Of a DNA stretch of 64,000 nucleotides, positions 7,534-26,337 are shown piece after piece. Location of the stretch: the NCBI GenBank assembly GCA_045047115.1, contig JASFYR010000010.1, positions 64,001-128,000 of the forward strand. The letters are read 5' to 3'. The notes under the pieces were generated by a model. That model ran no database searches and was not told the DNA's origin. It saw only the letters and a list, made by a program, of their open reading frames with translations. Position numbers and translations under genes: made by a program. The DNA is from Sulfurospirillum sp. (GTDB taxonomy: Bacteria; Campylobacterota; Campylobacteria; Campylobacterales; Sulfurospirillaceae). Positions within the stretch are counted from its first letter, which is position 1, and each line of letters opens with the position of its first letter.

Positions 7534-10500
7534 TCACGCTCTTCTATGATACAGAGCATAGATATTTGGTAGATAAAAGAGGTTTAATATCGTACCCCAA
7601 AGCAAACCAAAACCCAAGGACACCGCTAAAGGTTGAAATGTCACTGCCTCTCCTGTGGCAAAAAATATAAGTGATGAGAGCCCTATTATAGTAGTCACAG
7701 AGGTTAAAATTATAGGCCTAAACCTCTTGGCTGCCAAAATAGATATATCTGCTTGTCTTTTAGCTGTTTTTATGATTGAGAGCATCAATATGCCGTCATT
7801 TACGATAACACCTGCAAGTCCCAATGCTCCGACTATAGATGGCATAGAGAGATTTAATCCCATAATTTGATGTCCAAAAAGCACACCTAAAAATGACAAA
7901 GGTATAACACTCATAACTATCAAAGTCTCTCCTATAGAGTTAAAAAGATACAAAATAGATAAAAATATCAATATAATTGCCACCACTATAGCATTTAACA
8001 TATCATTTTGCAAAATTTTCTTTTGCTTGTACTCACCTCTTAACTTATATCTCAATCCACTCTTTTTTAACTCTTTCAAAACAGGCATTATCTTCATCAT
8101 CGCTTCACCGGTAGTGCTTATATCCTGGTCGATATTTGCATAAACATAAAAATTAACTTCTCCGTCATCTTTTGTAAGTTTTTCCAAAGATTGGGTGATA
8201 CTAAAATCACATATATCTTTTATCATCACAGTTTGACCATTTTTCAGCGCTATTTTCAATGTATCAAAATCTTTTACTCTATCCTTGTACTTGGAAGATA
8301 CTTTTATATCCAACATCCCCTCTTTATCTAAAATAACACCTTTTTTCTTTTCAAGATATAGGTCGGCTATATAATTTCCTAGATATTTTTGAGTAACGCC
8401 AAGCTGTTTTCCATAGGAGTTTAGATTTAGTTTAATCTCATTAGAACCAAACTTCATATTATCACCCACAAATTTTACCGCTTTTATTTTTCTAAGACTG
8501 TTTTTTAGTTTTTTTATACCCTTTATGACTTTTTTATAGTCTGTTCCTATGACACCTATCATTATATCTGCTCGCGAGTGCCCCATTCTTCTTTCTAAAG
8601 TATTTATCTCTCTTAAGTGAAATTTTCTCTTGTATTCTTTTTTTCTTAGAAATTTTCTGAGTTTTCTTGATATTTGTCTTGAATTTTCGGTTCTGATTCT
8701 CCCTTTTTTAGCATAATAAAAACTAAGATATGGAGTTATATACTTCTCTAAAAAATTTGACGGAGCTCTTTTTTGAAGATATAGAGTTACATATCCAACA
8801 TAAGGATACATCTCAGCTCCTCCTGTTGCACTTCTTCTGTATCCCGCTGTTGAACTCACATAATCTATGAAAAACTCTTTTTTATGCTTCAAAAGATCAT
8901 TTTCTATTGTTTGTACTATCTTAATAGAGTCTTGAAGGGTTGTATCTTTCGAAGCCTTATATGTGATACTTACGGATGTTGAGTCAAACGGTTCAAACAT
9001 CTTGAACCTCAAATGCTTTAGGCTGTTATACATCAAAAATGGTGTCAAAATCAAAAATATTGTCAAAAAAAGAATCTTATGCCTGATAATAATCTTGAGC
9101 ATCTTTGAGTAGAAGGCACTTATCCTTTTCCAGGAGAGTGTATGGGCATTTTTGTTGAGTATATGTGCTGAGTGTATAGGTAAAAACAGAAAAGACTCTA
9201 TCAGTGAAGCTACAACCAAAACGCTCACTGCGATTGGTATCAGCTCCATAATCTGTCCCAATCTCCCTGTTAGCATTAAAAGAGGTATAAAAGCAAATAT
9301 GGTAGTCAAAGAGGCTATAGTTACAGGTTTTGCCATCTCTTTAGTGCCTAAAAATGCCGCCTCTTTCGGTGAAAAACCCTTCTCTATATACTGCTGTATA
9401 TTTTCACTAATCACGATAGCATCATCAACTATGATACCTATAGCTATTAACACCCCTATGAGGGAATTTATATTTACACTATACCCAGTAAGGTAAAAAT
9501 ATATAGCTCCCATAACGAAAGATGTTGGAATTCCAAGTGCTATAACCATAGCCATTCTGAAATTTATAAGCAAAAATGTCATAAGAGTGATGAGAATAAT
9601 ACCCATCAAAATATTTGATATAACTATATCGAGACGATCTTTTATAACTGTTGAATGGTCATTTCTTATATCATACTCAATTTGCGGCTTTTGAAATCTC
9701 TTTATCATCTTTTTAACTTGCTTGGAAATCTCCAGTGCATTGCCTTTTGGATTTTGAGAGATAGATAGGGTTATGGCATTTTTGCCATTCATACTTGCCA
9801 GTGTCGAAGAGTCTCTGTATCTCTTTTTTATAGTTGCTACATCTTTTAGGGAAATAACTCTGTCGTCTATATTTAGAAATGTCTTTTTGAACTCTTTTAA
9901 TACATCTTTTTTATTTTCCAAAGATATATAGTATTCCTGTTTACTGCTATCTATCTTGCCTAGTGGAAATATATACGATATATTTGGTATGACATCTATA
10001 ATCTGCTTTTGAGTCAATCCGTAAGCTTCAGCTTTTTTACCGTCAATCAATACTTCATAATATATATCCGAATCTCCGAATATCGTCACATCGGATATAT
10101 CTTTTATGCCTAAAAGTTTCAATCTTAACTCTTTGGCATTTTCTATAAGCCTGTCTCTACCAAGAGTTTTGCTAAAGACCGAAACTTGCATAAGACCTCT
10201 TGCATGTGCTACCGTACTTGTTGTTAGTTCATCCATATCACTTGGCAAATCTGATTTTATAGCTGTTATGGCATCATCGATATCTTTTTGTACTTTTTGC
10301 TTGTCTGCACCCTTTCTCAACTCCAAAGTTATAGAAAATCTTCCCGGAGTTATACGAGATGATATAGTATCGATGCCATCGATATTTTGCACCTCTGCCT
10401 CTATCTCCTCTACTGCCATCTTATTTAGAGTATCAAGTGATGTACCACTGTATCCGCCTCTTATAGTTATAGAGTCCGGTTCGATAACAGGGGAAACCTC

Positions 10501-10608
10501 TTTTGGTAAAAAGATATAACTATATACACCCAGACCAAATACAAGAAAAAATAGTATATAATTTAACTTATAATTTTCAATAAAAAATTTCAACACTCTT
10601 TCAAACAA
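7534..10608 (-). CDS. RND (AcrB/AcrD/AcrF family) transporter permease
   Basis: 1024 aa with two periplasmic lobes and about 12 TM; GIIVDDAIVISENI, GVIVNDGI and RFRPIILTSVTT motifs. No MFP or TolC gene in the window. Confidence 0.9.
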   Translation of the reverse strand: MFERVLKFFIENYKLNYILFFLVFGLGVYSYIFLPKEVSPVIEPDSITIRGGYSGTSLDTLNKMAVEEIEAEVQNIDGIDTISSRITPGRFSITLELRKGADKQKVQKDIDDAITAIKSDLPSDMDELTTSTVAHARGLMQVSVFSKTLGRDRLIENAKELRLKLLGIKDISDVTIFGDSDIYYEVLIDGKKAEAYGLTQKQIIDVIPNISYIFPLGKIDSSKQEYYISLENKKDVLKEFKKTFLNIDDRVISLKDVATIKKRYRDSSTLASMNGKNAITLSISQNPKGNALEISKQVKKMIKRFQKPQIEYDIRNDHSTVIKDRLDIVISNILMGIILITLMTFLLINFRMAMVIALGIPTSFVMGAIYFYLTGYSVNINSLIGVLIAIGIIVDDAIVISENIQQYIEKGFSPKEAAFLGTKEMAKPVTIASLTTIFAFIPLLMLTGRLGQIMELIPIAVSVLVVASLIESFLFLPIHSAHILNKNAHTLSWKRISAFYSKMLKIIIRHKILFLTIFLILTPFLMYNSLKHLRFKMFEPFDSTSVSITYKASKDTTLQDSIKIVQTIENDLLKHKKEFFIDYVSSTAGYRRSATGGAEMYPYVGYVTLYLQKRAPSNFLEKYITPYLSFYYAKKGRIRTENSRQISRKLRKFLRKKEYKRKFHLREINTLERRMGHSRADIMIGVIGTDYKKVIKGIKKLKNSLRKIKAVKFVGDNMKFGSNEIKLNLNSYGKQLGVTQKYLGNYIADLYLEKKKGVILDKEGMLDIKVSSKYKDRVKDFDTLKIALKNGQTVMIKDICDFSITQSLEKLTKDDGEVNFYVYANIDQDISTTGEAMMKIMPVLKELKKSGLRYKLRGEYKQKKILQNDMLNAIVVAIILIFLSILYLFNSIGETLIVMSVIPLSFLGVLFGHQIMGLNLSMPSIVGALGLAGVIVNDGILMLSIIKTAKRQADISILAAKRFRPIILTSVTTIIGLSSLIFFATGEAVTFQPLAVSLGFGLLWGTILNLFYLPNIYALYHRRA

Positions 10609-10617
10609 TTTTACAAC

Positions 10618-11427
10618 CTATTTTTCAAGATACTCATAAGACTCATTTGCTAAAATAGCCGCACCGAAAGCTGTAGTAATTTGAGGAAATTTTGGTATAA
10701 ATATCTCTTTTGTCAACTCGTTTTCTATAGCATTTACCAAACCTATGTTTAGCGCCGGTCCACCATCGAAATAGATAGCCTCTTTTATGCCCACTCTTTT
10801 TACGAGTTTTATAACTCTTCTGGCTATAGAGTAGTGAACTCCTGCAACTATATCTTCTATACTGTAGTTATTTCCCAACAAACCGATGATTTCAGACTCC
10901 GCAAATACCGCACATGTACTGTTTATAGATAGCGGAGTGCCCTCTGATTTAAAGTGATAATCTCCTAGCTCTTCGACACCAATCTCCAATTTAAGCGCAA
11001 CTACATCCAAAAACTTTCCCGTCCCTGCAGCACATCTGTCATTCATAGCAAAATTTACCACATTTCCTTCGCTATCAAGTGAGATAGCTTTACTATCTTG
11101 TCCGCCTATGTTTATGATGGTTTTTATATCTTTTTCACCCTCAGCCATAGCAGCAGCTTTAGCTCCGATAGCATTTGCCGTGATTTCACTAATCTTCTCA
11201 TTCGCCTCCTTAAATAGTTTTCTTCCGTATCCTGTAGAGACAGTATAAGCTAAATTCTCCTCATTGACGCCCAATTCACCTAAAAGTTCGCCTAGTGCCT
11301 CTTTGGCGTATTTATAAAACATACTCCCGCTTGCATTTATCTTTTTCCCCACTAATTCCCTGTTTTCATCTATGATTGCTATCTTTATAGCGGTTGAGCC
11401 TATATCTATACCTGCAAAATATCTCAC
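10618..11427 (-). CDS. ASKHA-type ATP-dependent [4Fe-4S] activase (HgdC/BcrAD/DCCP-R family)
   Basis: GIDIGSTAIK, TGYGR, SEITA, IGGQDSK, MNDRCAAGTGKFL, STCAVFAESE. Confidence 0.93.
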   Translation of the reverse strand: MRYFAGIDIGSTAIKIAIIDENRELVGKKINASGSMFYKYAKEALGELLGELGVNEENLAYTVSTGYGRKLFKEANEKISEITANAIGAKAAAMAEGEKDIKTIINIGGQDSKAISLDSEGNVVNFAMNDRCAAGTGKFLDVVALKLEIGVEELGDYHFKSEGTPLSINSTCAVFAESEIIGLLGNNYSIEDIVAGVHYSIARRVIKLVKRVGIKEAIYFDGGPALNIGLVNAIENELTKEIFIPKFPQITTAFGAAILANESYEYLEK

Positions 11428-12692
11428 TATCTTCTTCTCCTTCTGTTTTTAAGTGACTCTATAAACGCTTCTATTCTCGTTGTTAGCTGTCCCAAATGAC
11501 TCGGACTGTAATCACTCTCGAGATATAAGATAGGAATTCCCTCTTTTTCCATAGCTTCTATAACTGATCTCTGCTCCATCTCATAAACCTGGCAACCTGC
11601 AAAAGCCTGATATACAACACCTTCCGCTTTGTACTCCTTAACCAACTCTATAACTCTTCTAACTCTATCATGATTTTTTGTGAAAATTGGACAAGTACAC
11701 CCTTTTAGGTATCTGTCCGCAACTGCATCAACCATATCATACAAAAACCACTCATCAACACTAACCATATCATTAAAAAGTCTATTTGCCGAACAGGTTT
11801 CATCTGCTACTATTATGCCGTCTGACTGCTCTATAAGTAAAGGAATTTTAAGATTTGGAAAGATTGGAGGAGAGCCCGTATATACAACTCTAGGACTATT
11901 TTTATGGGTCTTATCTTCTGTTTTTATTCTCTGCTTGCACTCTTCATACAGTCTTTGTATTGCCTCTATCCAGTCATCTATCCTGTCAAAAAAGAAGGCA
12001 TTTGTAACTAAAAACATATCTTTTCCCAAAATAGGAGGATTTGGCTCTCTTCTTAATTCATTTAGTTGATGATAAAGGTATTGGGCATAACCTATCTTTT
12101 GGATGACTTTTTTCAGTTTTGTTTTTTTTAATTTCTTGCCCAAATTCTTTGAGAGATTTTTTGTAAATTTTCTTACACTTCTTCGCCAATACTCCCTGCT
12201 CTCTTCACTCTCTTTTGTGCGTGGAAATTCCATATCATATACGAGATAACCCATATCTTCTATAACCGCACCTAATTTTGATTTTTGATCACAGGTAGTA
12301 GGAGATATGACAAAATCGGGCTTATCACTAAAGTTTTTTGAGCTAAATTGACCGATTGTAGCCTTGATTAGAGGACAAGCTTTAGACGGAGCTAAATCAC
12401 TTCCAATCTCATCATCTGTATAAAATCCATTGCAGAGCCTTATGGGAACTGCATCCAGTGCGTAAATAATCTCATAAGGAACCTGTATGCACATCGTTCC
12501 TACTTTGACACTTTTTTTATGAAGAGCCTCTCTTTTACAATAAACTCTCTCATACAAATCATAAAAATAGTCCATATTTTTAGGAGGCTCTATGAAATCG
12601 TGCCTGATTTTATCAAGCATGGATACTGCTTCCATAGCCTTATGACGATTTTGTTTATCTTTAGGAGTTTCTATATCTCTTTTGTGCCTCAT
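11427..12692 (-). CDS. 2-hydroxyacyl-CoA dehydratase superfamily protein, probably double-cubane cluster reductase (DCCP type)
   Basis: Cys68 (GTMC), Cys87 (IRLC), Cys106 (CPLIK), Cys134 (TTCDQK), then DETCSANR, GCTCP, GCQVY and the C-terminal LESDYS...GQLTTRIEAFIE. Single subunit translationally coupled to the activase. Confidence 0.8.
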   Translation of the reverse strand: MRHKRDIETPKDKQNRHKAMEAVSMLDKIRHDFIEPPKNMDYFYDLYERVYCKREALHKKSVKVGTMCIQVPYEIIYALDAVPIRLCNGFYTDDEIGSDLAPSKACPLIKATIGQFSSKNFSDKPDFVISPTTCDQKSKLGAVIEDMGYLVYDMEFPRTKESEESREYWRRSVRKFTKNLSKNLGKKLKKTKLKKVIQKIGYAQYLYHQLNELRREPNPPILGKDMFLVTNAFFFDRIDDWIEAIQRLYEECKQRIKTEDKTHKNSPRVVYTGSPPIFPNLKIPLLIEQSDGIIVADETCSANRLFNDMVSVDEWFLYDMVDAVADRYLKGCTCPIFTKNHDRVRRVIELVKEYKAEGVVYQAFAGCQVYEMEQRSVIEAMEKEGIPILYLESDYSPSHLGQLTTRIEAFIESLKNRRRRR

Positions 12693-13672
12693 TTCTTCTC
12701 TTCTCCAATCTTGTCTACTCTCATCCTCTTTGCAAATCCATCTTTTGTAGAAGTGAAAACTTTAAGTTTAAATATATCTACATGCAGAGCATCCTCTTCG
12801 GGACAGGCCGCTACACACTTCATGCAAAAGATACAGTCATCTCTGAGTATATTTTTACTATTTACATCATCTGCTATATCTTTTATCTGCATATCGCATA
12901 CATTGTAGCAATCTCCACACTTTGTGCATTTGTCTCCATCTTTTTTGAGCCTCAGCAGTGCCCAATCACTAAAGATATAGTGCATTGCACTCATAGGACA
13001 GTAGAAACAAAAAAATCTTTTTTTGATAAAAGAACCCACAAAAAACAGAACTGCAAATGTCACACCAAAAGCTGTCAAAAACAGTGTCGTACCTGTTGAA
13101 AAGTCTATTGTCCACTGCGAAAAATCACCCATAAACAGTGGCGTTATGAGTCTGCCCGGACACATCTTGCAAAATGCACCTCTCCACTGTGTATCTAGCA
13201 GTTCAAGTCCTAGCATCAATGGAAATATGATAACTATAAAAAGGAAAACATATTTGATTTTCTTTAAAAATTGATACTGAGAGCGTGTATATGTGTTATA
13301 GGGTATCTTCAAAAACTTTCTCAAACTTGTTATCCAATCTTGCATAGTTCCCAAAGGACAGGCATATCCGCACCAAGCTTTATTAAAAATTATAAACCAG
13401 GCTAAAAAAGTTAAAAAACCGCTCAAAACACCTATGCTAGCATAGCTAAAAAGCCTACTCCAAGGACGGGCAAGCTGATGTTGCAAACCCAAGAAATAAC
13501 AGTTTCCTCCTGTTTCCCTTGCATACCCACAAGAAAATATAGGCAGGCTTCTTCCCAAATCTATAGCTAAATATCCGCCATACACAAAAACTACAAAGAA
13601 AAACAGTTGCAACCAAAATCTAAATTTTCTCAAATCTCCATGATTTATAAAATCTTTTATCTTACTCATCAA
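12689..13672 (-). CDS. Membrane 4Fe-4S polyferredoxin (NapH/MauN/RdxA-like)
   Basis: WCGYACPLG, FCKMCPG, FCFYCPM, CTKCGDCYNVC, CIFCMKCVAACP; several TM helices. Confidence 0.85.
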   Translation of the reverse strand: MMSKIKDFINHGDLRKFRFWLQLFFFVVFVYGGYLAIDLGRSLPIFSCGYARETGGNCYFLGLQHQLARPWSRLFSYASIGVLSGFLTFLAWFIIFNKAWCGYACPLGTMQDWITSLRKFLKIPYNTYTRSQYQFLKKIKYVFLFIVIIFPLMLGLELLDTQWRGAFCKMCPGRLITPLFMGDFSQWTIDFSTGTTLFLTAFGVTFAVLFFVGSFIKKRFFCFYCPMSAMHYIFSDWALLRLKKDGDKCTKCGDCYNVCDMQIKDIADDVNSKNILRDDCIFCMKCVAACPEEDALHVDIFKLKVFTSTKDGFAKRMRVDKIGEEKK

Positions 13673-15974
13673 AAGTCACCTCACGAAATGGCTTTTGGAC
13701 TTTATATCTATACATAAAGACTCCCGCACTGATAAAAATAAGTAGCAACATAGCTACAATTAAAGCATAAGCAAAAGATTGATAAGCTTCTTTTGAGGGT
13801 ATATATATATCATTGTAACTCACTTTGTAAGAAATATTTTTATCTTTATATGTAGCTACTACTAAAAACTTCTCTTTAAATCTCTTGTTGAACTTATCCC
13901 ACTTTGGATTATAATCTTTTATAAGTTGAAATTTTACTATGCCGTCTCCACCCGATCTGGCACTCTTTTGCCAGCCAAATTGTGTCTTAAAACTTACTTT
14001 TGCGCCTTCAAGAGGTTTACCATCTTTTAAAACTTTAAATCTTACCTCATCCCCGCTGTGTAGCCTATAGTAAAAAGAGTCTTCGTTATCTCTTAGTCTT
14101 AATATATCAAACCCGACCTCTTTTGTAGTTTTTGAAGATATCTTATCTTTTGAAAATATCTCATCCCCTCCATGGTCAAATCTCTTATACTCGTATTTTG
14201 CAACATTGATAAATCGCTTGTTATTTTTAACATAGTACAGCGTATAGTATCCGCTTTTCGGGACTTTAAAAGTGATATTCGCACAACCCCTATCATCTCC
14301 TATCTTTGCATCTGATAAAACTCCGTCAACATTTAAGAGATAAAAAATTCCATCTGCATTTTTTACGCATTTTGGTCTTGCTAACCTCCGAGATACGAGC
14401 CAAAATGTTCGTGTTTGCACACCCTCTTTCGCTCTATTCATATACATCATGCCCATACCGCCTTTTCTTTTAGCAGTAGGATTTCTATCTGTAAAAAAGA
14501 GAGTATCTTTTGGTTTTACGACAATTGCCGCAACTTTGGACTTGCCCCCGGCATGGTGCATTTTACCCCTCTTGGCTCTACTGCCGTGCATACCGCCACT
14601 TGCTCTTGCGTATGTACTCGTGATATGCGCCCTATACTGATTTACACCAAAATAGAAGATGATAAGCATGGCTGCAAACGGAAATGCCACTATCTTTCTT
14701 AACTTATCCGCTTTTATCAATTTAAATCTTTTATATAAAATCACCAGTGCCCAGATGATAGCCACCCACTTGAAGATGTTGAATATCATCAGCCAGTCAT
14801 CACCCCTCTTTGCCAAAGGCGCTACTTTCATACTAAAACCAAAAGCCCAGGCAAAACCCTCTACTATCCTCTTGTATCCTCTTGTAAAAAATCCGCTTAA
14901 TGCATAACCTAAGGACGCAAATATAAAAAGAGGTGCATAAGAGTAGCCAAGATTGTAAAATACATCTTTAAAAGGTTTTTTGAGTATTTTTGAAGCTATA
15001 TACATTCCGACGGTTGCCGCCAAAATTGTAAACACCATAGCATAAAGATAAGCAAAAAGTCCTACCGTATCAACATCTCTCCCAAACAGAGGCTTAAATA
15101 TCTCTGCGCTCTTATACCAAATCATATCTTTAGCCGCTTTACTGCGATCTATACCGTGATGAAATGCCATAGCTATCGGTATGGATGCGAGTATCAGTAT
15201 ATATGCCCAAATCTCTACTTTTAGAGCTTTAAATTTACCAAACAAAGAGGATGACGGCTTTTTAAACTTGAAATTTACAGACTCGCATGCACTTGTACAC
15301 TCCATACATAAAGTACAATCTTCCATAGAGTTTTTTTTATCAAATGTAAAAGGCTTTAAGTTATACGGGCAAGCAGTAGCACAATCAAATGTCTTACATT
15401 CCCTACATGCACTTTTGTAAGTACCAAGCCTTGCAAAAGAAAGCTTTGAAAATGCTCTTGTTACCGTACCTATGGGACATATATATTTACAATAGCTCAT
15501 ATCTTTATACAAAAAGTAAAGCAAAAATGCCAATACACTCATAACTGTAAAAAGCATTGCCGTTCCAAGCGGAGTTCTATAGACTCCAGGATATATGTAG
15601 TAAACTCCCCACCAGCCAACTACAAGTAGAAGCAGACCGATAAAACGGTTTTGCATCCACTCTGGCATACTTTTTTTAAGACCAAATTTTGTGATATATT
15701 TACCCAAAAATCCATGAGGACAGATACCGCAAAATATCCTTCCAAATGTCGGCAGAGTTGCAACCATAAAAAAAGACCAAAACATACCCCAAAACAGAGC
15801 AAAGGTGAAGAGATTGTTTTTTGAAGTATCACTAAAACCTAAAAAAATAGCATAAAAAAACAACCCAAACACAACAACTCTTAAAGCCAATAGAAACTTT
15901 TGATTCTTAAATAAAAAACCGAGGATCTTTTTATTTAATATATCACTTTTATCTCTCTTTATAAAATCTACCAC
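13662..15974 (-). CDS. Membrane polyferredoxin fused to a Met/His-rich linker and a DUF4198-like extracytoplasmic domain
   Basis: GRIFCGICPHG, YCKYICPIG, CRECKTFDCATACP, CTLCMECTSAC; about 10 TM; then GGMHG..KMHH..GGMGMMYM, GDEVRFKVLKDGKPLEGAKV...GDGIVKF and a C-terminal TM. Confidence 0.75.
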   Translation of the reverse strand: MVDFIKRDKSDILNKKILGFLFKNQKFLLALRVVVFGLFFYAIFLGFSDTSKNNLFTFALFWGMFWSFFMVATLPTFGRIFCGICPHGFLGKYITKFGLKKSMPEWMQNRFIGLLLLVVGWWGVYYIYPGVYRTPLGTAMLFTVMSVLAFLLYFLYKDMSYCKYICPIGTVTRAFSKLSFARLGTYKSACRECKTFDCATACPYNLKPFTFDKKNSMEDCTLCMECTSACESVNFKFKKPSSSLFGKFKALKVEIWAYILILASIPIAMAFHHGIDRSKAAKDMIWYKSAEIFKPLFGRDVDTVGLFAYLYAMVFTILAATVGMYIASKILKKPFKDVFYNLGYSYAPLFIFASLGYALSGFFTRGYKRIVEGFAWAFGFSMKVAPLAKRGDDWLMIFNIFKWVAIIWALVILYKRFKLIKADKLRKIVAFPFAAMLIIFYFGVNQYRAHITSTYARASGGMHGSRAKRGKMHHAGGKSKVAAIVVKPKDTLFFTDRNPTAKRKGGMGMMYMNRAKEGVQTRTFWLVSRRLARPKCVKNADGIFYLLNVDGVLSDAKIGDDRGCANITFKVPKSGYYTLYYVKNNKRFINVAKYEYKRFDHGGDEIFSKDKISSKTTKEVGFDILRLRDNEDSFYYRLHSGDEVRFKVLKDGKPLEGAKVSFKTQFGWQKSARSGGDGIVKFQLIKDYNPKWDKFNKRFKEKFLVVATYKDKNISYKVSYNDIYIPSKEAYQSFAYALIVAMLLLIFISAGVFMYRYKVQKPFREVTFDE

Positions 15975-15984
15975 TACCCTCTCC

Positions 15985-16644
15985 TTAAAACATCAGGTTT
16001 TTATTTAGTATGCTTAAGCCTAAAACCACTAAAAACAGAGCTGTAAATCTCTCAACCCATAACTTGTATTTTGCAAATTGCACCAAAACACCCCTTATAA
16101 ATTTTGAAAAAATAAAACCATAAAAAAGTATAGAAAAAAGTACAGCCCCTATACCAAAAAATATGCCGACTCCAACAGCATCATATATAGCGTTGCTATT
16201 CATAGCAACTGCCAAAAGTGTGAGTATGGGAGCACAAGGATTTAGAGACATCATTGCTCCTATAGTAAAGAAGCCTATCTTGTTTGTTTTTTTCTTTTTA
16301 GCATTAAATGGTGTTACGCAAGAGTCCTTGTTCGCAAAACTCTTATAAAAAAGATACGCACCCATAATCATAGTAACAGTGCCCAAAAGAGTATTTGATA
16401 CAAGCGTATCATCTAAGATTTTTTTCACCCAAGAAGAGCTTAGATATGCAATCACCGCCAAAATTGTATAGCTAAAAACTCTTCCAAAACTAAAAGGCAA
16501 TATAACTCCCAAAGCTTCTTTGGTGCTATTTGAATTTGATATAAGCAGAGGTGTTAAAAACGGCATGCATGAAAACATACATGCCGTAGTGCCATAAGAT
16601 AACCCTATGATAAAAACAGAGAAAAATATTGAGTATTCAATCAT
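15985..16644 (-). CDS. DsbD_2/TauE-SafE family membrane protein with Cys motifs
   Basis: About 6 TM; CMFSCMP, FSFGRVFSY and LNPCAP motifs. Confidence 0.75.
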   Translation of the reverse strand: MIEYSIFFSVFIIGLSYGTTACMFSCMPFLTPLLISNSNSTKEALGVILPFSFGRVFSYTILAVIAYLSSSWVKKILDDTLVSNTLLGTVTMIMGAYLFYKSFANKDSCVTPFNAKKKKTNKIGFFTIGAMMSLNPCAPILTLLAVAMNSNAIYDAVGVGIFFGIGAVLFSILFYGFIFSKFIRGVLVQFAKYKLWVERFTALFLVVLGLSILNKNLMF

Positions 16645-16652
16645 GTATTCTC

Positions 16653-18827
16653 TTAAAATTTGTACTTAAATCCAACATAAAAAACACGACCCGGGTCAAC
16701 TGTGATACTTGCATCTTCCGCATCAAGTGTTCCATCTCCACTTTTGTCACTAAAGAGATAAACTGTTCTGTAATATTGTTTGTCAAGTAAGTTATCTACT
16801 CTAGCAAAAAGCTCCAAATCGCCACCTTTGATTTTTGTGTTATATTTGACCAGTAAATTTGCAACACCATATGACGGCATTTTTACAAAATTTGTCTCAT
16901 CTGCATAGTAGCTTGACTGCCAATAGTAAGATGGAACAACCATCCATTTTGGAGCAACTTTAAAATAAGTCATGAGATTTATCTTGTGATGCGGAGTTCT
17001 AGGCAGCTGATTTCCGTTTATGTCATATGTTTTATCTCCAGCAGAACGATAAAGAGGAGCCAAATCAACCGTAAAAGGCTTATGGGAGGTATAAAAAGCA
17101 TCTAAATATGTATAGGCCAATTCAAAAGCAATTTTTTTACTTTTGTCACTCTTTAGTGAAAACTCAACTCCTCTGCTTCTTGCATCACCGATATTATCAA
17201 AATACACATTTGTTCCACCCGAATAGTAAGTTCCTCCAATTTTTCCGATTATATCTTTTGTATCCAGTTGATAAATTGACAAATCATAAGATAGTTTCGT
17301 ATTTGAGACTATCTTATTTCCTCGCACACCAATCTCAATATTAAATGTTGTTTCAGTGTTTATGCCTGTATTATTTTGAGTATATCTGTCTGGATCAAAA
17401 TCATGTGCATACAGCTCATAAACCCTAGGATTTCTAAATCCTGTAGAGACATTTGAGTATAGTGTATTTTTTGCATTTAGTTGATATGTTCCGCCTGCTC
17501 TGTATGAAAAGTTTGTAAAATCCGTATTTCTAGAAGTAGTGCTATCACTCCATATAGTACCATTATAGTCATGTGCGAAAACATTATAATCAAAAGTTGT
17601 GTAGTCTGCCCTTACATTAAATACTGCCATAAATTTTTCATTTACCTTGTATTTGACCTCTCCATAAAGAGCTGAGTTTTTTTCAGATGTACTTGACTTG
17701 GAAGACTCTCCCGTATAGTACCACTTTCCTCTACTTGAATAGGTTTCAGTCTTAATCCAACTATCGTCCAAATCTCTTTGACCCAAATCCAATCCTATCA
17801 TATATGCAAGATTATTTTTTTTGCCTCTGTATTCTGATTTCACCCCATACTGTTTTATATTTTCATTATTATCACTGGTATAGCCATCATCAAGCCCATT
17901 GCCGTTTAAATCTTGAGGGGATGATAAAAAATTATACAGGTCTTGATAGTGATATGTATTTACTCTTAAATTTCCTCCATTTTCAAAATCCCTGTTGTAT
18001 GTCACAAAATATTTATCTATATCAGAATAATAATCACCATTCCAAGGCAAATCACCATCATTAGCACCTGTTGGGTTCGTTTGTGCTGCCGTAACTCCAG
18101 TGACACTTCCCCTACTGCTCTCTTCGTATTTTCTTTCTATGTTGGCACCAACTGTTACATCACTCATATCATCTATGTAGTATTGAAATTTTCCGTTTAC
18201 AGACTTATCTTCAAGTTGACTCATATCCCAGTAACCATCAGTATATCTATAATTTGCATTTATACTAACTGAATATTTATCAGTACCTCTCATCAATGAT
18301 GCCACCAAATCTTTGTAATTTTCACTACCATATTCAAATTTGATACTATTCTCATTTCTATTTTTTGGTTTTTTTGTAGTTATCATAATAGCCCCTGCCA
18401 ATGCATTTCTTCCATATAGGTAACTAGCACCGCCCTTTATAACTTTGATGGACTCTATATCATCGAGATTTAATTTCACCTTTCCTCCGTTTTGAAGAAC
18501 AGGAACACCATCTATCACGACAGCAACACCGGTATCTTCCCACATAAACTCTTGCTGACCAACACCTCTTATGTGTATCTCAACAGTCTCTCCACTTCTT
18601 ACATCAGCGGTAATGCCGGGAATTGTATTTAGAACTTCTCCTATATTTTTTGGATCTACTATTTCTATCTTCTTTTCATCTATTGTATTAACCGTAGAAA
18701 TCTCTGTTTTTTTATCTGTTGTTAAATCAGAAATAGTTGATGATTCAACATTGACAGTCCCTAAATCAGCTGCATTTGCACTCATTAATAAAACACAAAA
18801 TACAGACAAATATACCTTTTTACTCAT
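16653..18827 (-). CDS. TonB-dependent receptor
   Basis: Signal peptide; plug motifs IHIRGVG, VVIDGVP, IESIKVIKGGASYLYGRNALAGAI; NLLDKQY; terminal GFKYKF. RBS AAGGAG upstream. Confidence 0.93.
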   Translation of the reverse strand: MSKKVYLSVFCVLLMSANAADLGTVNVESSTISDLTTDKKTEISTVNTIDEKKIEIVDPKNIGEVLNTIPGITADVRSGETVEIHIRGVGQQEFMWEDTGVAVVIDGVPVLQNGGKVKLNLDDIESIKVIKGGASYLYGRNALAGAIMITTKKPKNRNENSIKFEYGSENYKDLVASLMRGTDKYSVSINANYRYTDGYWDMSQLEDKSVNGKFQYYIDDMSDVTVGANIERKYEESSRGSVTGVTAAQTNPTGANDGDLPWNGDYYSDIDKYFVTYNRDFENGGNLRVNTYHYQDLYNFLSSPQDLNGNGLDDGYTSDNNENIKQYGVKSEYRGKKNNLAYMIGLDLGQRDLDDSWIKTETYSSRGKWYYTGESSKSSTSEKNSALYGEVKYKVNEKFMAVFNVRADYTTFDYNVFAHDYNGTIWSDSTTSRNTDFTNFSYRAGGTYQLNAKNTLYSNVSTGFRNPRVYELYAHDFDPDRYTQNNTGINTETTFNIEIGVRGNKIVSNTKLSYDLSIYQLDTKDIIGKIGGTYYSGGTNVYFDNIGDARSRGVEFSLKSDKSKKIAFELAYTYLDAFYTSHKPFTVDLAPLYRSAGDKTYDINGNQLPRTPHHKINLMTYFKVAPKWMVVPSYYWQSSYYADETNFVKMPSYGVANLLVKYNTKIKGGDLELFARVDNLLDKQYYRTVYLFSDKSGDGTLDAEDASITVDPGRVFYVGFKYKF

Positions 18828-18892
18828 TGTGCCACACTCCTTTTAATAATAATTACTCCAGGACACCACTCCTGGTTTTTTGCGATAAAAGA

Positions 18893-18924
18893 AGTTTAGC
18901 AATGATCTGTTAATCATCTGTTAA
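18893..18924 (-). promoter_or_regulatory. Promoter of TBDR/double-cubane operon with TTAACA-N5-TTAACA direct repeat and extended -10
   Basis: Minus strand reads TTAACAGATGATTAACAGATCATTGCTAAACT. Confidence 0.7.
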
Positions 18925-18952: not shown

Positions 18953-18984
18953 TTAACACATTTTTAACACTCTATTGATAAACT
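18953..18984 (+). promoter_or_regulatory. Promoter of regulator/OprC-like operon with TTAACA-N5-TTAACA direct repeat and extended -10
   Basis: TTAACACATTTTTAACACTCTATTGATAAACT; same geometry as the divergent copy. Confidence 0.7.
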
Positions 18985-18990
18985 TCGATA

Positions 18991-19656
18991 ATGAGAAAAA
19001 AGAAAAAAGTTTTATTGCTTGAAGATAACCTTCTGTTTGCCCAGACACTACAAGAGTATTTAGAAGATAAAAATTTTATAGTTGACATCTCAATAGACGG
19101 GGAGGAAGCACTTCAAAAAAGTTACTATACAAATTATGACCTATATCTTTTGGATGTAAAGGTTCCAAAGATAAACGGTATGGATTTTTTAAAAATGCTC
19201 AGAGAGAGCGGAGATGAGAGACCTGCCATGTTCATAACTTCATATCAGGACTTAGAGACTCTTAAAAAAGGCTATATGTTGGGTTGCGATGACTATATGA
19301 AAAAACCTATCGACTTAGAGGAATTATCATATCGCATAGAAGTCCTTCTTAAAAGCAGAAACAAACTGAACACAAAAATGAGATTGAACGATAAGTACTA
19401 TTATGATTTTAAACAAAGAACTATATTTTGTGATGATATCGCTATCAAAGTCTCTATGAAAGCCATACTGTTACTGGAGATTTTTTTGGAAAACAGATCT
19501 AAAGTTGTCACAAAAGAGCAGATAGTGCAAAAGCTTTGGAGTAGTTCGGATGAATACAGTGATGGTTCTATCAGAGTATATGTCAACAAACTAAAAAGCA
19601 TAATAGGTAAAAAAAGTATTGAGAATATAAAAGGTATAGGCTATAAGTTAACTTAG
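18991..19656 (+). CDS. OmpR/PhoB family response regulator (no adjacent kinase)
   Basis: LLLED, LLDVKVP, FITS, DDYMKKP receiver motifs; winged helix IRVYVNKLKSIIG...KGIGY. Confidence 0.93.
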   Translation: MRKKKKVLLLEDNLLFAQTLQEYLEDKNFIVDISIDGEEALQKSYYTNYDLYLLDVKVPKINGMDFLKMLRESGDERPAMFITSYQDLETLKKGYMLGCDDYMKKPIDLEELSYRIEVLLKSRNKLNTKMRLNDKYYYDFKQRTIFCDDIAIKVSMKAILLLEIFLENRSKVVTKEQIVQKLWSSSDEYSDGSIRVYVNKLKSIIGKKSIENIKGIGYKLT

Positions 19657-19685: not shown

Positions 19686-21710
19686 GTGAATAAGTATTTG
19701 GTGATTGCTATTTCGCTAGCGGCGGCAGCACATATATGTGCTGCTCAAAGTGTAGATTTAGACAAGATTACTGTACAAAGCACGGTGATAAAGACAGAGG
19801 TAACAAATGTATCAGGAGAGGATTTAAAGTCGGCTGACTTGGCAGAGGCTTTGACAAAGACAGTTCCTAGTATAACGATTCAAAGAAGAAGCGGTATAGC
19901 AAATGATATAATCTTAAGAGGACAAAGAAAAGACGATATCAATGTTATCATTGATGGAGGAAAGATATATGGAGCCTGTCCAAACAGAATGGATCCGCCT
20001 ACTTCACATATAATCACAAATAATATAAAAGATGTTGAAGTCATAGAGGGACCTTATGATGTTGAGGATTTTGGAACACTTGGTGGTGCTGTTAAAGTTA
20101 CCACAAATCAACCCACAAAAGATCCGCACGGCAATGTAAATCTCAATATGGGAAGTTGGGGGTATAAAAAAGCTTCAGCATTTATAAGTGGGGGGAATGA
20201 TAATGTGAAAGTACTTGTCGGAGCCTCAACAGAACAAAGTGACCAATATAAAGATGGCTATGGACATACTTTGGCCGAACAGTTAAAAATTGCAACGGAT
20301 GGGACACCAAATGCTCCAAAACAATACAAACCATCAGAATTTAATAGGGAAGCCTATAAAAAAACATCTTTTATGGGAAAAGTTTATATCAATATAACTG
20401 ATAATCAAGAGTTAAGACTCGGATATACAGGTAATAGAAGCGACAATATCCTCTATCCTTCAACTCCTATGGATGCCATATCGGATGACTCTAATCTTTA
20501 TAATATCCAGTATATCGCTAAAAATCTCGGAAAATACTCAGATAGACTCAATTTTAAATACTACTACTCAACCGTAGATCATCCAATGACAACTCAATAT
20601 AGACTTATGAGTGGTGGGGCAGCAGGTACAGTAGCCAATGTAATGAGTTCAACCATATATGGAGCAAAGCTGAACAATGACTTTCATATAGATGATACAA
20701 AAATCACCTATGGTATAGAAGCGAGCAAAAGAAACTGGAATGGAACATACTATAAAGACTACACAACAAATCCAATAGTACTAAATGCAAGTATCCCTGA
20801 TGTAGATACTACAAATTTTGGTCTTTTTGCAAAAGTAAAAAAGAGTTACGGAAAGTTTGATGTCAATGGTGGTTTAAGATATGACCACACTAAGATAGCG
20901 GCTGGGAACAGTGATCCTGACAGTAATTTCAATGACTTAAGCGGATATCTCTTTACATACTACAATCTAAACAATAACTTCAAATACTTTATTGGTCTTG
21001 GAAAATCAATAAGAGTACCTGATGGCAAAGAGACTCACGATAGAGGTAAAGACTTAACCGGTGCTACTGATGGGCCTCTTATAGGAAATCCCTATCTAAA
21101 AGAGACAAAAAACTACGAGACAGATCTCGGTATTGAAGGCACATTTGACAACAGCACCTTTAAAGCAAAAGTTTTCTACTCAATTTTAAAAGATTTTATT
21201 GTTTACAATGCTACTGCTACTCAGTATCAAAATACAGATGCAAAGATATACGGTATAGAGTTTAGCGGATCATACTTTGCTACTGATGATCTCTATTTTG
21301 ATTATGGCATAGCTTATCAAAGAGGCAAAAAAGATAGTCCACTAGCAGGACAGACAGATACAAACTTGCCATCCATTCCACCTGTGAAAGCAAATATAGC
21401 CGTCAATTACGATGTTGATTCAACTCTAAGTTTAAAAGCTGAGGTTGTAGCATCTGGCAAATGGAGCAGATATGATTCCGACAATGGCGAACAAGAGATC
21501 AACAGCTGGAGTGTCCTGAATTTAAAAGTAAGCAAAGATTTTTACAAAGGATTTAATATCACTTTGGGAGTCGACAATCTATTTGATAAAGCTTATGCCG
21601 TATCAAATACCTATAAAGACCTAAATCTAGTAGCCGGATCAACAGGGGATGTTATGCTTCTAAATGAACCTGGTCGCTACTTATACGCAAACTTATCATA
21701 TAAATTTTAA
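19686..21710 (+). CDS. TonB-dependent copper receptor, OprC/NosA-like
   Basis: GACPNRMDPP (CxxxM) in the plug and VDHPM (HxM) in the barrel, the OprC copper-site motifs; terminal LSYKF. Confidence 0.8.
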   Translation: MNKYLVIAISLAAAAHICAAQSVDLDKITVQSTVIKTEVTNVSGEDLKSADLAEALTKTVPSITIQRRSGIANDIILRGQRKDDINVIIDGGKIYGACPNRMDPPTSHIITNNIKDVEVIEGPYDVEDFGTLGGAVKVTTNQPTKDPHGNVNLNMGSWGYKKASAFISGGNDNVKVLVGASTEQSDQYKDGYGHTLAEQLKIATDGTPNAPKQYKPSEFNREAYKKTSFMGKVYINITDNQELRLGYTGNRSDNILYPSTPMDAISDDSNLYNIQYIAKNLGKYSDRLNFKYYYSTVDHPMTTQYRLMSGGAAGTVANVMSSTIYGAKLNNDFHIDDTKITYGIEASKRNWNGTYYKDYTTNPIVLNASIPDVDTTNFGLFAKVKKSYGKFDVNGGLRYDHTKIAAGNSDPDSNFNDLSGYLFTYYNLNNNFKYFIGLGKSIRVPDGKETHDRGKDLTGATDGPLIGNPYLKETKNYETDLGIEGTFDNSTFKAKVFYSILKDFIVYNATATQYQNTDAKIYGIEFSGSYFATDDLYFDYGIAYQRGKKDSPLAGQTDTNLPSIPPVKANIAVNYDVDSTLSLKAEVVASGKWSRYDSDNGEQEINSWSVLNLKVSKDFYKGFNITLGVDNLFDKAYAVSNTYKDLNLVAGSTGDVMLLNEPGRYLYANLSYKF

Positions 21711-21762: not shown

Positions 21763-22185
21763 ATGGATTTACTCTTCTTAAAAGAGATGGTTGACTATGG
21801 AATAATAGGGTTTTTGGTTTTACTTAGCATCATATCTTTGACATTTTTTATAGAGAGATTAATTTTTTATAAAAAAATAGATACTACAAAATACAAAAAT
21901 CACAAAGTGCTCGAAAACAGACTTACAAAACACTTGACTATCATAGGTTCAATTGCCTCAAATGCACCATATATTGGTCTTTTAGGCACAGTAATGGCCA
22001 TCATGATAACATTTGCCACAATCGGAAACAGCGGACTTGATGCCGCAAAAATCATGAGCTCCATTGCATTGGCTCTGAAGACTACTGCTGTCGGTCTGGT
22101 CGTAGCTATATGTTCTATGTTTTTTTACAATATTCTAGCAAGGTTTACAGAAACTATATTGGCAAATTACGATGAAGAAATTTGA
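21763..22185 (+). CDS. exbB: TonB system energizer ExbB
   Basis: IASNAPYIGLLGTV and ALALKTTAVGLVVAI motifs. Confidence 0.93.
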   Translation: MDLLFLKEMVDYGIIGFLVLLSIISLTFFIERLIFYKKIDTTKYKNHKVLENRLTKHLTIIGSIASNAPYIGLLGTVMAIMITFATIGNSGLDAAKIMSSIALALKTTAVGLVVAICSMFFYNILARFTETILANYDEEI

Positions 22186-22540
22186 CTCTATCAATGTTGT
22201 TCCTTTTATAGACATAATGTTGGTGCTGCTGGCAATTGTTCTGACAACATCAACATTTGTAGCAAAAGGCATAATACCCCTCGAACTGCCACAAGGAAAT
22301 GCTAAAAAATTGGCTAAAAACAAAAGTATTACTATCAGCATAAAAAAAGATGGCAAAATATACCTTGATCAGCAAGAACTGACAAAAAAGGGACTCGAAA
22401 ATCGTCTTGAACTTATGAGCAAAAAATCAATTATACTCATCAGGTGTGATAAAAACTCAAAATTTCAATCTTTTGTTACCGTACTAGAAGAGTTAAAAAA
22501 TCTAAATTATGAAAATATCTCTATAGTTACAAAAAAATAA
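22172..22540 (+). CDS. exbD: TonB system protein ExbD
   Basis: INVVPFIDIMLVLLAI, LELP, IRCDK. Confidence 0.93.
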   Translation: MKKFDSINVVPFIDIMLVLLAIVLTTSTFVAKGIIPLELPQGNAKKLAKNKSITISIKKDGKIYLDQQELTKKGLENRLELMSKKSIILIRCDKNSKFQSFVTVLEELKNLNYENISIVTKK

Positions 22541-22542
22541 AA

Positions 22543-23232
22543 ATGCGTTGCTTTTTCTCTCTTTTTACTTCTATAATCATACATTCGTTCATATTTATAG
22601 GTTTGATTTTCTCATATCAAACTATAAAAATGCCACAAAAAAAAGAGAGGATAATATCCATAAAAACTATCAAATTTCAAAAACCTAAACCTAAGTCTAA
22701 ACCAAAACCAAAGCCTAAACCAAAGCCTAAACCAAAGCCTAAACCAAAGCCTAAACCAAAGCCTAAACCAAAAAGAATAATAAAAAAAATTATCCATAAA
22801 CCCAAGCAAATAAAAAAAGAATTAACTTCGGTAGAGCCAAAAAAAGTTTTTCCTAAAACTATAAAAAAAGATATTTCTAAAAAGACAGTAGAAAAAGTTG
22901 AGGATAATTTAACCAAATCAACTCCAACATATCAACCAAAAATTGATTTGAAAGCTAAATATTTAAAGTATAATTACAAAAAGATACTATCCTCCATCAA
23001 AGACTCAAAATTCTATCCGAGAAGAGCAAAAAAACTCCATATACAAGGAGCTGTAAAGATAAAATTTTTACTAAAAAAAGATGGCTCTGTAGTAATCGAA
23101 GAGTTAATTTCCAAAAAAAGGTTTCTCAAAAAGGCAACTAAAAAAATTATCGAGAAAGCAAGTATCTATTTTCCTAGACCACCGGAGGATTTAAGCATAA
23201 AAATAACTCTGGTATTTAAATTACAAGATTAG
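22543..23232 (+). CDS. tonB: Energy transducer TonB
   Basis: N-terminal TM with SxxxH, (KP)n linker, YPRRAKKLHIQGAV C-terminal domain. Confidence 0.92.
   Translation: MRCFFSLFTSIIIHSFIFIGLIFSYQTIKMPQKKERIISIKTIKFQKPKPKSKPKPKPKPKPKPKPKPKPKPKPKPKRIIKKIIHKPKQIKKELTSVEPKKVFPKTIKKDISKKTVEKVEDNLTKSTPTYQPKIDLKAKYLKYNYKKILSSIKDSKFYPRRAKKLHIQGAVKIKFLLKKDGSVVIEELISKKRFLKKATKKIIEKASIYFPRPPEDLSIKITLVFKLQD
22711..22770 (+). repeat. 12-bp tandem repeat (AAGCCTAAACCA x5) encoding the TonB KP linker
   Basis: Five exact copies read directly. Confidence 0.9.
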
Positions 23233-23866: not shown

Positions 23867-23911
23867 AATCCACCTCCTGTGAGGCTCCACATGTAGAGCC
23901 TCTTGTATCTT

Positions 23912-24337: not shown

Positions 24338-24347
24338 AATATCCCCC

Positions 24348-25647: not shown

Positions 25648-26337
25648 TTATCTACCCGACAGGTATAGTGCAACAGCTTGGAAAGGCTTGCCTTTTATCT
25701 TTCCACACAAATTGTGCTCTTTTATATATGTTTTAGCAACAGCAGGATTACTAAATCTCTTTTCTGTCATCTTGCACTTTTTATTGTATATCTTTCTGCC
25801 CATTTTTGCCATTTTTGCCTGCTTTTTCTTTATACCCATCATCTCTTTTTTAAGATTTTTCTTTACCATTTTTTCAAGTTTTGCATACTTCATAATCTTT
25901 CCGCCAAATTTTTTGGCAAAAGCCTGAGCTGCACTTTTTGTTCCAAAAGCATACTTACTCACCATAGACATCGTTCCTGGTTTTTTTGAACCTACGACAT
26001 AAAATGCTTTTGTTGCATTTATAAACTTCAAAGTTGTATTATCAACTACTTCGGGATCAACCGGATCACCACCGTTTTTAACCGCCTCTTCTACCATACA
26101 GTGTATAGAGCAGTATTGATGAACTTTTCCATTAACTTTTGCTGCGTGATTTGTTTTGTAAAACATAGGAAGTGTCATACCACAAACCTTACAGAACATT
26201 TTGCCTTTTCCTTTTTGTACAATCTGTGCTTTTTGCATTGGAACTGCTCTAAAGTTTTTCATTTTCATATTTTTTTGCATACCGCCTGCTGATAAAAACA
26301 TAGAAAATGCCACTAAAACAAATAAGAATTTTTTCAT
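25648..26337 (-). CDS. NosL family periplasmic protein, Met-rich, with C-terminal extension
   Basis: Signal peptide, CKVCGM, QYCSIHC, AFYVVGS..PGTMS..SKYAF, FGGKI. Confidence 0.85.
   Translation of the reverse strand: MKKFLFVLVAFSMFLSAGGMQKNMKMKNFRAVPMQKAQIVQKGKGKMFCKVCGMTLPMFYKTNHAAKVNGKVHQYCSIHCMVEEAVKNGGDPVDPEVVDNTTLKFINATKAFYVVGSKKPGTMSMVSKYAFGTKSAAQAFAKKFGGKIMKYAKLEKMVKKNLKKEMMGIKKKQAKMAKMGRKIYNKKCKMTEKRFSNPAVAKTYIKEHNLCGKIKGKPFQAVALYLSGR

What the first reader, a model, noticed from the sequence alone, without database searches (positions are those of the whole stretch)
7534..18827. Candidate new system: TonB receptor + membrane polyferredoxins + ATP-driven double-cubane reductase + RND transporter in one operon
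Seen: seven co-oriented genes with overlaps or gaps of 10 bp or less behind one promoter (TBDR, Cys-motif DsbD_2/TauE protein, 770-aa polyferredoxin fusion, NapH-like polyferredoxin, DCCP-like protein, ASKHA activase, RND). Known: DCCP/DCCP-R pairs (Carboxydothermus) use ATP to deliver very low-potential electrons and reduce acetylene, azide and hydrazine in vitro, and their physiological substrate is unknown. HgdAB and benzoyl-CoA reductases need paired subunits and CoA-pathway genes, which are absent here. Inference: an envelope-spanning uptake-and-reduction machine, e.g. import of a tightly bound metal chelate or mineral metal (Cu, Ni, Co) and reductive release, with the RND exporting apo-ligand or excess metal. 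It shares a promoter motif with a copper receptor and NosL genes next to nosZ, which points to copper supply for N2O respiration. I know no described pathway with this gene set.
Basis: partly seen in the sequence, partly recalled or inferred. Interest (0 to 1): 0.9.

Follow-up and report, generated by a model that had tools for sequence, protein, structure and literature searches.

The report
Copper-linked uptake operon with ATP reductase
A conserved bacterial gene cluster joins an outer-membrane importer to an ATP-powered iron-sulfur reductase whose natural job is unknown, and it appears to be regulated together with copper-supply and copper-enzyme genes, which gives that enzyme a testable role in harvesting tightly bound copper.

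Summary
The seven genes are real and tightly packed. The 421-aa protein keeps all seven cysteines of the double-cubane protein DCCP but scores just under the family cut-off (336/350 bits). The conserved core is receptor, DUF4198-like anchored domain, NapH/CcoG-like polyferredoxin, DCCP-like protein, activase and DsbD_2, in Campylobacterota and in 30 of 301 sampled gammaproteobacterial genomes. The RND pump is accessory (25 of 58 loci). Copper is the best-supported cargo. A NosL domain is fused into the long polyferredoxin in 20 of 37 relatives. The promoter repeat also precedes OprC-like receptors, nosL, tonB/exbB and ccoN in other genomes. In Gammaproteobacteria a different palindrome links the operon to oprC, ccoN, nosZ and SCO/PCuAC genes. 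The link is not specific to N2O respiration (nosZ in 27 of 49 operon genomes). What the double-cubane enzyme reduces is inferred, not shown, and the shared regulon could be redox-driven rather than copper-driven. No paper describing the system was found in the library searched. This scan noted the same operon before on other DNA (five notes).

The parts
16653..18827 (-). TonB-dependent receptor, 724 aa, own clade; plug His85 and Met95 conserved; no OprC CxxxM motif
   Evidence: Pfam; H85/M95 in >=95% of 38 clade members; nearest solved chains YncD/PqqU, E 1e-22
15985..16644 (-). DsbD_2/CcdA-fold membrane protein, 219 aa, with C22, C26, C137 invariant and C109 nearly so
13662..15974 (-). 770-aa fusion: N-terminal Fer4_5 membrane polyferredoxin + periplasmic DUF4198/NikM-like domain + C-terminal anchor; many relatives carry a NosL domain between the two parts
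12689..13672 (-). NapH/CcoG-like four-helix membrane polyferredoxin, 327 aa: two CxxxCP motifs, 2x[4Fe-4S] domain, plus invariant C48, C58, H65, C168, C171 in the loops inferred to face the periplasm
11427..12692 (-). Double-cubane (DCCP-type) protein, 421 aa; C68, C87, C106, C134, C300, C334, C367; long N-terminal extension
10618..11427 (-). ASKHA-type activase (DCCP-R-like), 269 aa
   Evidence: TIGR00241 225 bits, over cut-off; conservation
7534..10608 (-). RND permease, 1024 aa, accessory; TM4 motif DDAIVISEN
18908..18924 (-). Direct repeat TTAACA-N5-TTAACA at the -35 position of the operon promoter
18953..18969 (+). Same repeat for the divergent regulator-oprC-exbBD-tonB unit
18991..19656 (+). 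OmpR-family response regulator, candidate binder of the repeat (inferred)
   Evidence: repeat precedes 6 of 8 such regulators in related loci
19686..21710 (+). OprC-like copper receptor with GACPNRMD and HxM motifs aligned to OprC
   Evidence: PDB 6FOK, E 1e-30; TIGR01778 202 bits, under cut-off
21763..23232 (+). exbB-exbD-tonB
25648..26337 (-). Stand-alone NosL protein, 50% identical to the NosL domain fused into relatives' long polyferredoxin; repeat at 26379-26395
26434..27561 (+). Two-domain NosL protein; repeat at 26396-26412

Best explanation
The operon is a copper-scavenging module that supplies copper enzymes (cbb3 oxidase and, where present, NosZ) in sulfidic, low-oxygen habitats. The TonB receptor brings a tightly bound copper species into the periplasm. 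The anchored DUF4198-like domain and NosL (fused in many relatives, separate here) catch it. The Cys-lined polyferredoxins and the DsbD_2 protein handle the inner-membrane step. The cytoplasmic activase burns ATP to charge the double-cubane protein with very low-potential electrons, which free Cu(I) from its ligand, either by running outward through the polyferredoxin's clusters to its periplasm-side Cys/His site or by reducing a small ligand inside. Shown: genes, families, cluster ligands, synteny, NosL fusion, shared promoter motifs. Inferred: co-regulation, cargo, topology, direction of electron flow and the enzyme's substrate.
For: Core conserved in 44-47 of 47 well-flanked loci per gene and in Gammaproteobacteria. 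NosL domain in 20 of 37 full-length fusions; CGM and YCSxH motifs kept in all 20. In five other Campylobacterota genomes the repeat (42 exact sites, 11 for the reversed control) precedes an OprC-like receptor in 4 of 5, nosL twice, tonB/exbB four times, ccoN twice. In seven gammaproteobacterial genomes a different palindrome (27 matches, control 2) marks 13 loci other than the operon, 7 of them oprC, ccoN, nosZ or SCO/PCuAC. An OprC-like gene lies directly upstream, same strand, in L039, L063, L064. No excess of Fur-like (4 of 43, expected 3.8) or NikR-like (10 of 43, expected 6.1, max 13) sites (consensus patterns recalled). CcoG, a related Fer4_5 protein, is a cupric reductase and NosL a Cu(I) chaperone (PMC7558416).
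Against: The operon's own receptor lacks the OprC motif and its nearest solved relatives are YncD/PqqU. Both regulons also hold non-copper genes (multiheme cytochrome, ResB, cytochrome b, OprD, a FecI-like sigma factor), so they may answer to oxygen or redox state. The anchored domain resembles nickel-transport NikM/DUF4198. An OprC-like gene was found in only 5 of 10 operon genomes of the family. 7 of 20 gammaproteobacterial regions show no receptor. Free Cu(II) needs no ATP-driven reductant, and class I DCCP channels admit only small molecules (PMC7317905). A receptor-anchor-polyferredoxin-DsbD_2 unit also occurs without the enzyme pair (L054, L055). In Nitrosophilus labii the operon proteins are not among those changed by N2O.
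Confidence: 0.5

Rival explanations
1. Same uptake-and-reduction machine, but for another metal complex (Ni, Co or Fe), placed in a redox-controlled respiratory regulon that merely also holds copper genes.
For: DUF4198/NikM-like domain; non-copper respiratory genes and a FecI-like sigma factor share the motifs; PepSY_TM reductase genes lie beside 3 of 80 loci; Co(II), Ni(II)-tetrapyrrole and some Fe(III) chelates do need low potentials (recalled). The gammaproteobacterial palindrome resembles a RegA/RegR box (recalled, not checked).
Against: NosL fusion and repeated OprC, SCO and PCuAC partners; no Fur or NikR site excess; no riboswitch in the window or in 14 loci scanned.
Confidence: 0.18
2. 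The double-cubane pair is biosynthetic: it reduces a small molecule to make or recycle a simple copper ligand, which the RND exports and the receptor re-imports loaded.
For: Class I-like closed enzyme suited to small substrates; the RND scores better as an organic-compound exporter (NF033617 419 bits) than as CusA/CzcA (226 bits); RND adaptor genes share the gammaproteobacterial motif at 3 of 13 loci.
Against: The RND follows the operon in only 25 of 58 loci, and the gammaproteobacterial RNDs are 20-27% identical to it in their best segment; no other biosynthetic gene recurs.
Confidence: 0.13
3. The system imports and reduces a sulfur or selenium species, for example to feed selenophosphate synthesis or cluster assembly.
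For: The genome's canonical DCCP pair is in an operon with yedF and selD; HGD/activase genes lie in the selenium cluster of Slackia (PMC5322559) and DCCPs track the SAO selenoprotein locus (bioRxiv 2022.07.06.499078); most hosts are sulfur oxidisers (record titles).
Against: selD found in only 21 of 49 operon genomes, and not found in the closed chromosome of Sulfurovum sp. CS9; the operon enzyme falls in a different clade from the selD-linked copy (quick tree); no sulfur-relay gene recurs in the loci.
Confidence: 0.1
4. An ordinary 2-hydroxyacyl-CoA dehydratase or benzoyl-CoA reductase acting on an imported organic acid, as databases annotate it.
For: Source names; Pfam HGD-D.
Against: Seven DCCP cysteines and the long N-terminal extension; dehydratase and reductase models score at most 85 bits; no partner subunit or CoA-pathway gene recurs.
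Confidence: 0.04

Closest known systems
DCCP/DCCP-R of Carboxydothermus hydrogenoformans (PDB 6ENO, 7YYL; NF040772)
   Same: Seven aligned cysteines, 421-aa length with N-terminal extension, adjacent ASKHA activase.
   Different: About one-third identical, separate clade, 336 bits against a cut-off of 350, an extra conserved Cys332 beside ligand Cys334; embedded in an envelope uptake operon. The model enzyme's physiological role is stated as unknown (PMC9351452).
SAO locus with adjacent double-cubane proteins (bioRxiv 2022.07.06.499078)
   Same: Importer + efflux + double-cubane enzyme, proposed to reduce an imported metal-containing compound.
   Different: ABC importer, selenoproteins and MerB-like lyase in strict anaerobes; the term TonB does not occur in its main text; no polyferredoxins or NosL seen in the passages read.
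CcoG / ccoGHIS copper supply to cbb3 oxidase
   Same: Fer4_5 membrane protein with two [4Fe-4S] clusters and an Ig-like periplasmic domain, reduces Cu(II) (PMC7558416).
   Different: No TonB receptor or ATP-driven reductase; here extra periplasm-side Cys/His and no P1B-ATPase in the operon.
OprC/NosA + NosL copper acquisition
   Same: Co-regulated by motif; NosL fused to an operon protein in many relatives.
   Different: The operon's own receptor is not OprC; OprC needs no cytoplasmic reductase.
TonB siderophore uptake with reductive release (FoxA/FoxB, Fpv, FhuF; recalled)
   Same: Receptor + periplasmic binder + membrane reductase logic.
   Different: Heme or 2Fe-2S reductases under Fur control, no ATP-energised electrons.

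Membership tests
DCCP (NF040772, class I) | Seven-Cys motif | tested here: met
   All seven align to 6ENO cysteines; spacing 18-18-27-165-33-32, against 18-18-29-166-33-32 in the genome's canonical copy
DCCP (NF040772, class I) | Score over the curated cut-off | tested here: not met
   335.7 against 350 bits; the second copy scores 454. Filed as a sister clade, not as a member of the equivalog
DCCP (NF040772, class I) | Single subunit with adjacent ASKHA activase | tested here: met
   activase in 44 of 47 well-flanked loci
DCCP (NF040772, class I) | N-terminal helices closing the CoA channel | tested here: inconclusive
   About 60 residues precede the first Cys region as in DCCP and hold conserved positions; no model of this protein was built
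DCCP (NF040772, class I) | [8Fe-9S] cluster and ATP-dependent small-molecule reduction | not testable with these tools
   needs purified protein
2-hydroxyacyl-CoA dehydratase / benzoyl-CoA reductase | Paired alpha/beta subunits with three-Cys clusters | tested here: not met
   one subunit, seven Cys; family scores 21-85 bits
OprC/NosA (operon receptor 16653-18827) | CxxxM-HxM copper site | tested here: not met
   absent from the clade consensus; no TIGR01778 match
OprC/NosA (neighbour 19686-21710) | CxxxM-HxM copper site | tested here: met
   aligned to 6FOK; family score under cut-off
CusA/CzcA heavy-metal RND | Score over TIGR00914 cut-off; adaptor and outer-membrane genes adjacent | tested here: not met
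   226 against 701 bits; no adaptor or outer-membrane factor in this operon
CcoG/NapH Fer4_5 proteins | Two CxxxCP motifs and a 2x[4Fe-4S] domain | tested here: met
   invariant in 58 sequences; NapH models under cut-off, 72-75 bits
CcoG/NapH Fer4_5 proteins | Cupric reductase activity | not testable with these tools
   needs assay
SAO system | Nine-gene locus with selenoprotein ABC importer and SaoL | tested here: not met
   no Sao family among the NCBIfam matches shown for 65 window proteins; selD found in 21 of 49 genomes

The most novel reading that the evidence does not exclude
Bacteria of sulfidic habitats spend ATP to push nitrogenase-grade electrons outward across the inner membrane (activase to double-cubane to membrane polyferredoxin) to strip copper from otherwise inert complexes brought in by a TonB receptor, and hand Cu(I) to NosL. 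This would be a first physiological role for a double-cubane protein and a new kind of nutrient acquisition.
Probability: 0.3. Interest if true: 0.93.

Novelty: new variant of a known kind. Interest (0 to 1): 0.78.

Why it matters
The physiological job of double-cubane proteins is stated as unknown in the papers that define them. How sulfide-dwelling bacteria obtain copper for N2O reductase and oxidases is also open (bioRxiv 2025.06.28.662143 asks for the mechanism). This operon ties the two questions together. Close homologues of its long polyferredoxin occur in cultured strains (Sulfurimonas denitrificans DSM 1251, Nitrosophilus labii, N. alvini, Hydrogenimonas thermophila, Sulfurovum sp. 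CS9), so expression and enzyme tests are straightforward.

Tried and rejected
Rfam: no match in the window, and only tRNAs in 14 related loci; only chance-level matches on the conserved leader (one search covered the wrong stretch). Single-sequence fold of the receptor failed (pLDDT 33) and was not used. Sequencing runs: none was listed, so no reads were laid. Dedicated N2O role rejected on distribution. Selenium supply disfavoured. A phosphate-starvation (pho-box) reading of the repeat was dropped because no pst/pho gene appeared among genes behind it. Likeness to the H. pylori CrdR site (core AACACC-ATTT-CCACAA, bioRxiv 2026.06.29.735229) is only a lead. A Sulfurovum indicum sulfur transcriptome supplement gave no sign of the enzyme (first hits only). 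The tree is the quick version; the careful search did not finish.
Full report
Observation. Seven minus-strand ORFs fill 7534-18827, with gaps of 8, 10, -11, -4, -1 and 9 bp and then 97 bp to an unrelated moxR cluster. In order of transcription they are a TonB receptor, a DsbD_2 protein, a 770-aa Fer4_5 fusion, a 327-aa NapH-like polyferredoxin, an HGD-D protein, an ASKHA activase and an RND permease. The surroundings are a Campylobacterota denitrification region with clade II nosZ at 32106.

The enzyme. The 421-aa protein is closest to DCCP among solved chains (6ENO, E 2e-59), and its C68, C87, C106, C134, C300, C334 and C367 align with DCCP's seven cysteines. It scores 335.7 bits on NF040772 (cut-off 350) and at most 85 on dehydratase or benzoyl-CoA reductase models. 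It has the long N-terminal part that in DCCP closes the CoA channel (PMC7317905). The genome has a second, canonical copy (454 bits) in an operon with activase, yedF and selD. In a quick tree of 54 rows the window's protein lies in a 27-row clade (support 100) apart from that copy; three operon-linked gammaproteobacterial rows form a further group outside it. I file it as a DCCP-type sister clade.

Conservation. The genome scan found 231 relatives and kept the best 80. In the 47 loci with enough flank, the anchored domain or long fusion occurs in 47, the short polyferredoxin in 46, DsbD_2 in 45, a receptor in 44, the activase in 44 and tonB/exb in 28; some misses are artefacts of my ORF caller. 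The RND follows in only 25 of 58 loci. In a gammaproteobacterial order, 30 of 301 sampled genomes match. In 20 regions fetched from 19 of them the order anchor-polyferredoxin-enzyme-activase-DsbD_2 recurs; 13 show a receptor and 7 do not. The N-terminal membrane part of the 770-aa protein is also optional: many loci encode only the DUF4198-like anchored domain.

Clue 1, a fusion. Of 37 full-length fusions, 20 carry a NosL domain that keeps the CGM and YCSxH motifs. The window's version lacks it, but a stand-alone NosL at 25648-26337 is 50% identical to that domain and sits behind the same promoter repeat.

Clue 2, a Campylobacterota regulon. TTAACA-N5-TTAACA (up to 1 mismatch) lies in 39 of 43 upstream regions, mostly 8-10 bp before a -10-like hexamer; the shuffle mean is 0.7. 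The pattern was read off these regions, so that count is partly circular. Within the loci it marks 78 of 420 genes with an upstream gap: 46 of 57 receptors, 9 of 12 exbB, 7 of 19 DsbD_2, 6 of 8 regulators. In five other genomes there are 42 exact sites against 11 for the reversed pattern. I examined 41 and omitted one at a contig end. They precede OprC-like receptors in 4 of 5 genomes (truncated translations; TIGR01778 is the best match, under cut-off), the operon's receptor four times, tonB/exbB four times, nosL twice, DsbD_2 twice and ccoN twice. They also precede a multiheme cytochrome, ResB, cytochrome b, an OprD porin, sugar-metabolism genes and a regulator, and about ten have no clear gene behind them.

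Clue 3, an independent regulon. The gammaproteobacterial promoters lack the repeat and carry a palindrome, TGYGK-AWAT-MCRCA-like, in 17 of 21 regions (pattern derived from them), with sigma-54-type promoters in some. Seven genomes gave 27 matches against 2 for the control, in 23 loci, of which I dropped 3 tandem duplicates. Seven are operon or paralogue promoters. Of the other 13, three precede oprC (one full-length gene passes TIGR01778; two have a divergent tonB), two ccoN, one nosZ, one an operon with SCO and PCuAC genes (recognised by eye from recalled motifs), three RND adaptors, one a two-component operon, one a FecI-like sigma factor and one an unknown gene. Two different motifs in two phyla thus tie the operon to the same copper genes. 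Neither motif shows what signal is sensed; oxygen or redox control would give a similar list.

Distribution tests. I gave 50 of the 80 loci (long contigs; 49 genomes) to whole-genome searches. nosZ was found in 27 of 49, selD in 21 and an OprC-like gene in 38; completeness is not reported for these genomes. In the window's family (61 genomes), 10 have the operon-type enzyme; 8 of these have nosZ, against 27 of the other 51, and 5 have OprC, against 23 of 51. By locus, nosZ accompanies the NosL-fused form in 15 of 17, the fused form without NosL in 8 of 13 and the free anchored domain in 5 of 18; kin are not independent. So the system is not tied to N2O reductase, though the NosL-bearing variant leans that way.

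Expression. No sequencing run was listed. In the proteome supplement of PMC11539149, N. labii WP_187648104.1 (56% identical to the 770-aa protein) is detected with 3 unique peptides. An activase, RND, adaptor, regulator, ExbD and TonB with neighbouring accession numbers are detected too; the enzyme and the receptor were not seen. Their adjacency is inferred from accession numbers and lengths. With N2O a NosL-like protein of that run rises (log2 1.17), OprC rises (0.6) and CcoO falls; the operon proteins are not listed as changed.

Mechanism. Hydropathy and the fold model give the 327-aa protein four helices. If its ferredoxin domain is cytoplasmic, as recalled for NapH and CcoG, the invariant C48, C58, H65, C168 and C171 face the periplasm, giving metal sites on both sides. 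DsbD_2 has three invariant and one near-invariant Cys. The enzyme pair has no membrane helix. The simplest reading is copper capture with ATP-driven reductive release, needed only when the ligand holds Cu(II) very tightly (inference from redox chemistry). Whether the polyferredoxin feeds the activase or takes electrons from the enzyme is open, as is the enzyme's substrate. I put copper involvement at about 0.63 (best explanation plus the biosynthetic rival) and reductive release at about 0.5.

Literature. Ten searches were run. 'double-cubane' with 'TonB-dependent' gave no paper, and 'double-cubane' with 'copper' gave 17 listings, none describing this operon by title or abstract start. Most subscription papers are outside the library. 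Seen: PMC7317905, sections 2 (first part), 2.3, 3 and passages; passages of PMC9351452, PMC5322559, PMC7558416, PMC9927306, and bioRxiv 2022.07.06.499078, 2025.06.28.662143 and 2026.06.29.735229; PMC11539149, a term search of the main text, searches of both supplements and part 2 of the first; PMC10045233, passages and one supplement search; PMC12176620, listing only. The supplements of the SAO preprint list DCCP neighbourhoods and were not seen; they could bear on novelty. Five earlier notes of this scan report the same operon in other genomes; they are not independent evidence.

Verdict. A real, conserved and apparently undescribed system built from known families. It works like TonB uptake with reductive release, with a DCCP-type ATP-driven reductase added, most likely for copper. 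Interest 0.78.

Noticed in passing
L111:7331-11061 (own genome, contig C21): Canonical DCCP and activase in one operon with yedF and selD (selD match contains one TGA). The same adjacency appears by coordinates in G004 and G009 but not in most of the family.
   Followed up: partly
L084:3768-3885, L091:5899-6030, L098, L100, L102, L104 (twice), L231, L232: Conserved leader hairpin (CCTTGCC pairing with GGCAAGG around AGTTTGGCGAC) before the operon's receptor, followed by a short ORF. No Rfam match, little covariation (1 of 18 pairs), 2 real hits in 401 genomes; absent from the window.
   Followed up: partly
window 18860-18871 (minus strand): Small leader hairpin with a GGA loop (ACCA-GGAG-TGGT), kept in L032; resembles a CsrA site (recalled).
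   Followed up: no
G016, G021, G022, G024, G028, G033, G037, G038, G041: In one genus of the family the OprC-like receptor lies within about 4 kb of selD.
   Followed up: no
L112:5399-11827 (own genome, contig C33): The repeat precedes a small Gly/Met-rich protein, a DUF2141 protein and an RND-adaptor-outer-membrane set; a possible source of partners for the operon's lone RND.
   Followed up: partly
L054:1213-5887, L055, L149, L070: A paralogous unit of receptor, anchored domain and polyferredoxin (with DsbD_2 and tonB in L054, L055) without the enzyme pair.
   Followed up: no
L078:7208-8983, L088, L090, L100, L103, L104: A 566-592 aa protein with a TonB plug but no recognised barrel sits between the anchored domain and the polyferredoxin.
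   Followed up: no
own genome C10:60757-63819, just outside the window: RND paralogue 47% identical to the operon's RND, also without adjacent adaptor.
   Followed up: no
L045, L048: The response regulator and a short kinase are in line with nosL and a second DsbD_2 gene next to the operon.
   Followed up: no
window 23282-24794: Three tandem small heat-shock protein genes between tonB and a Crp/Fnr regulator.
   Followed up: no
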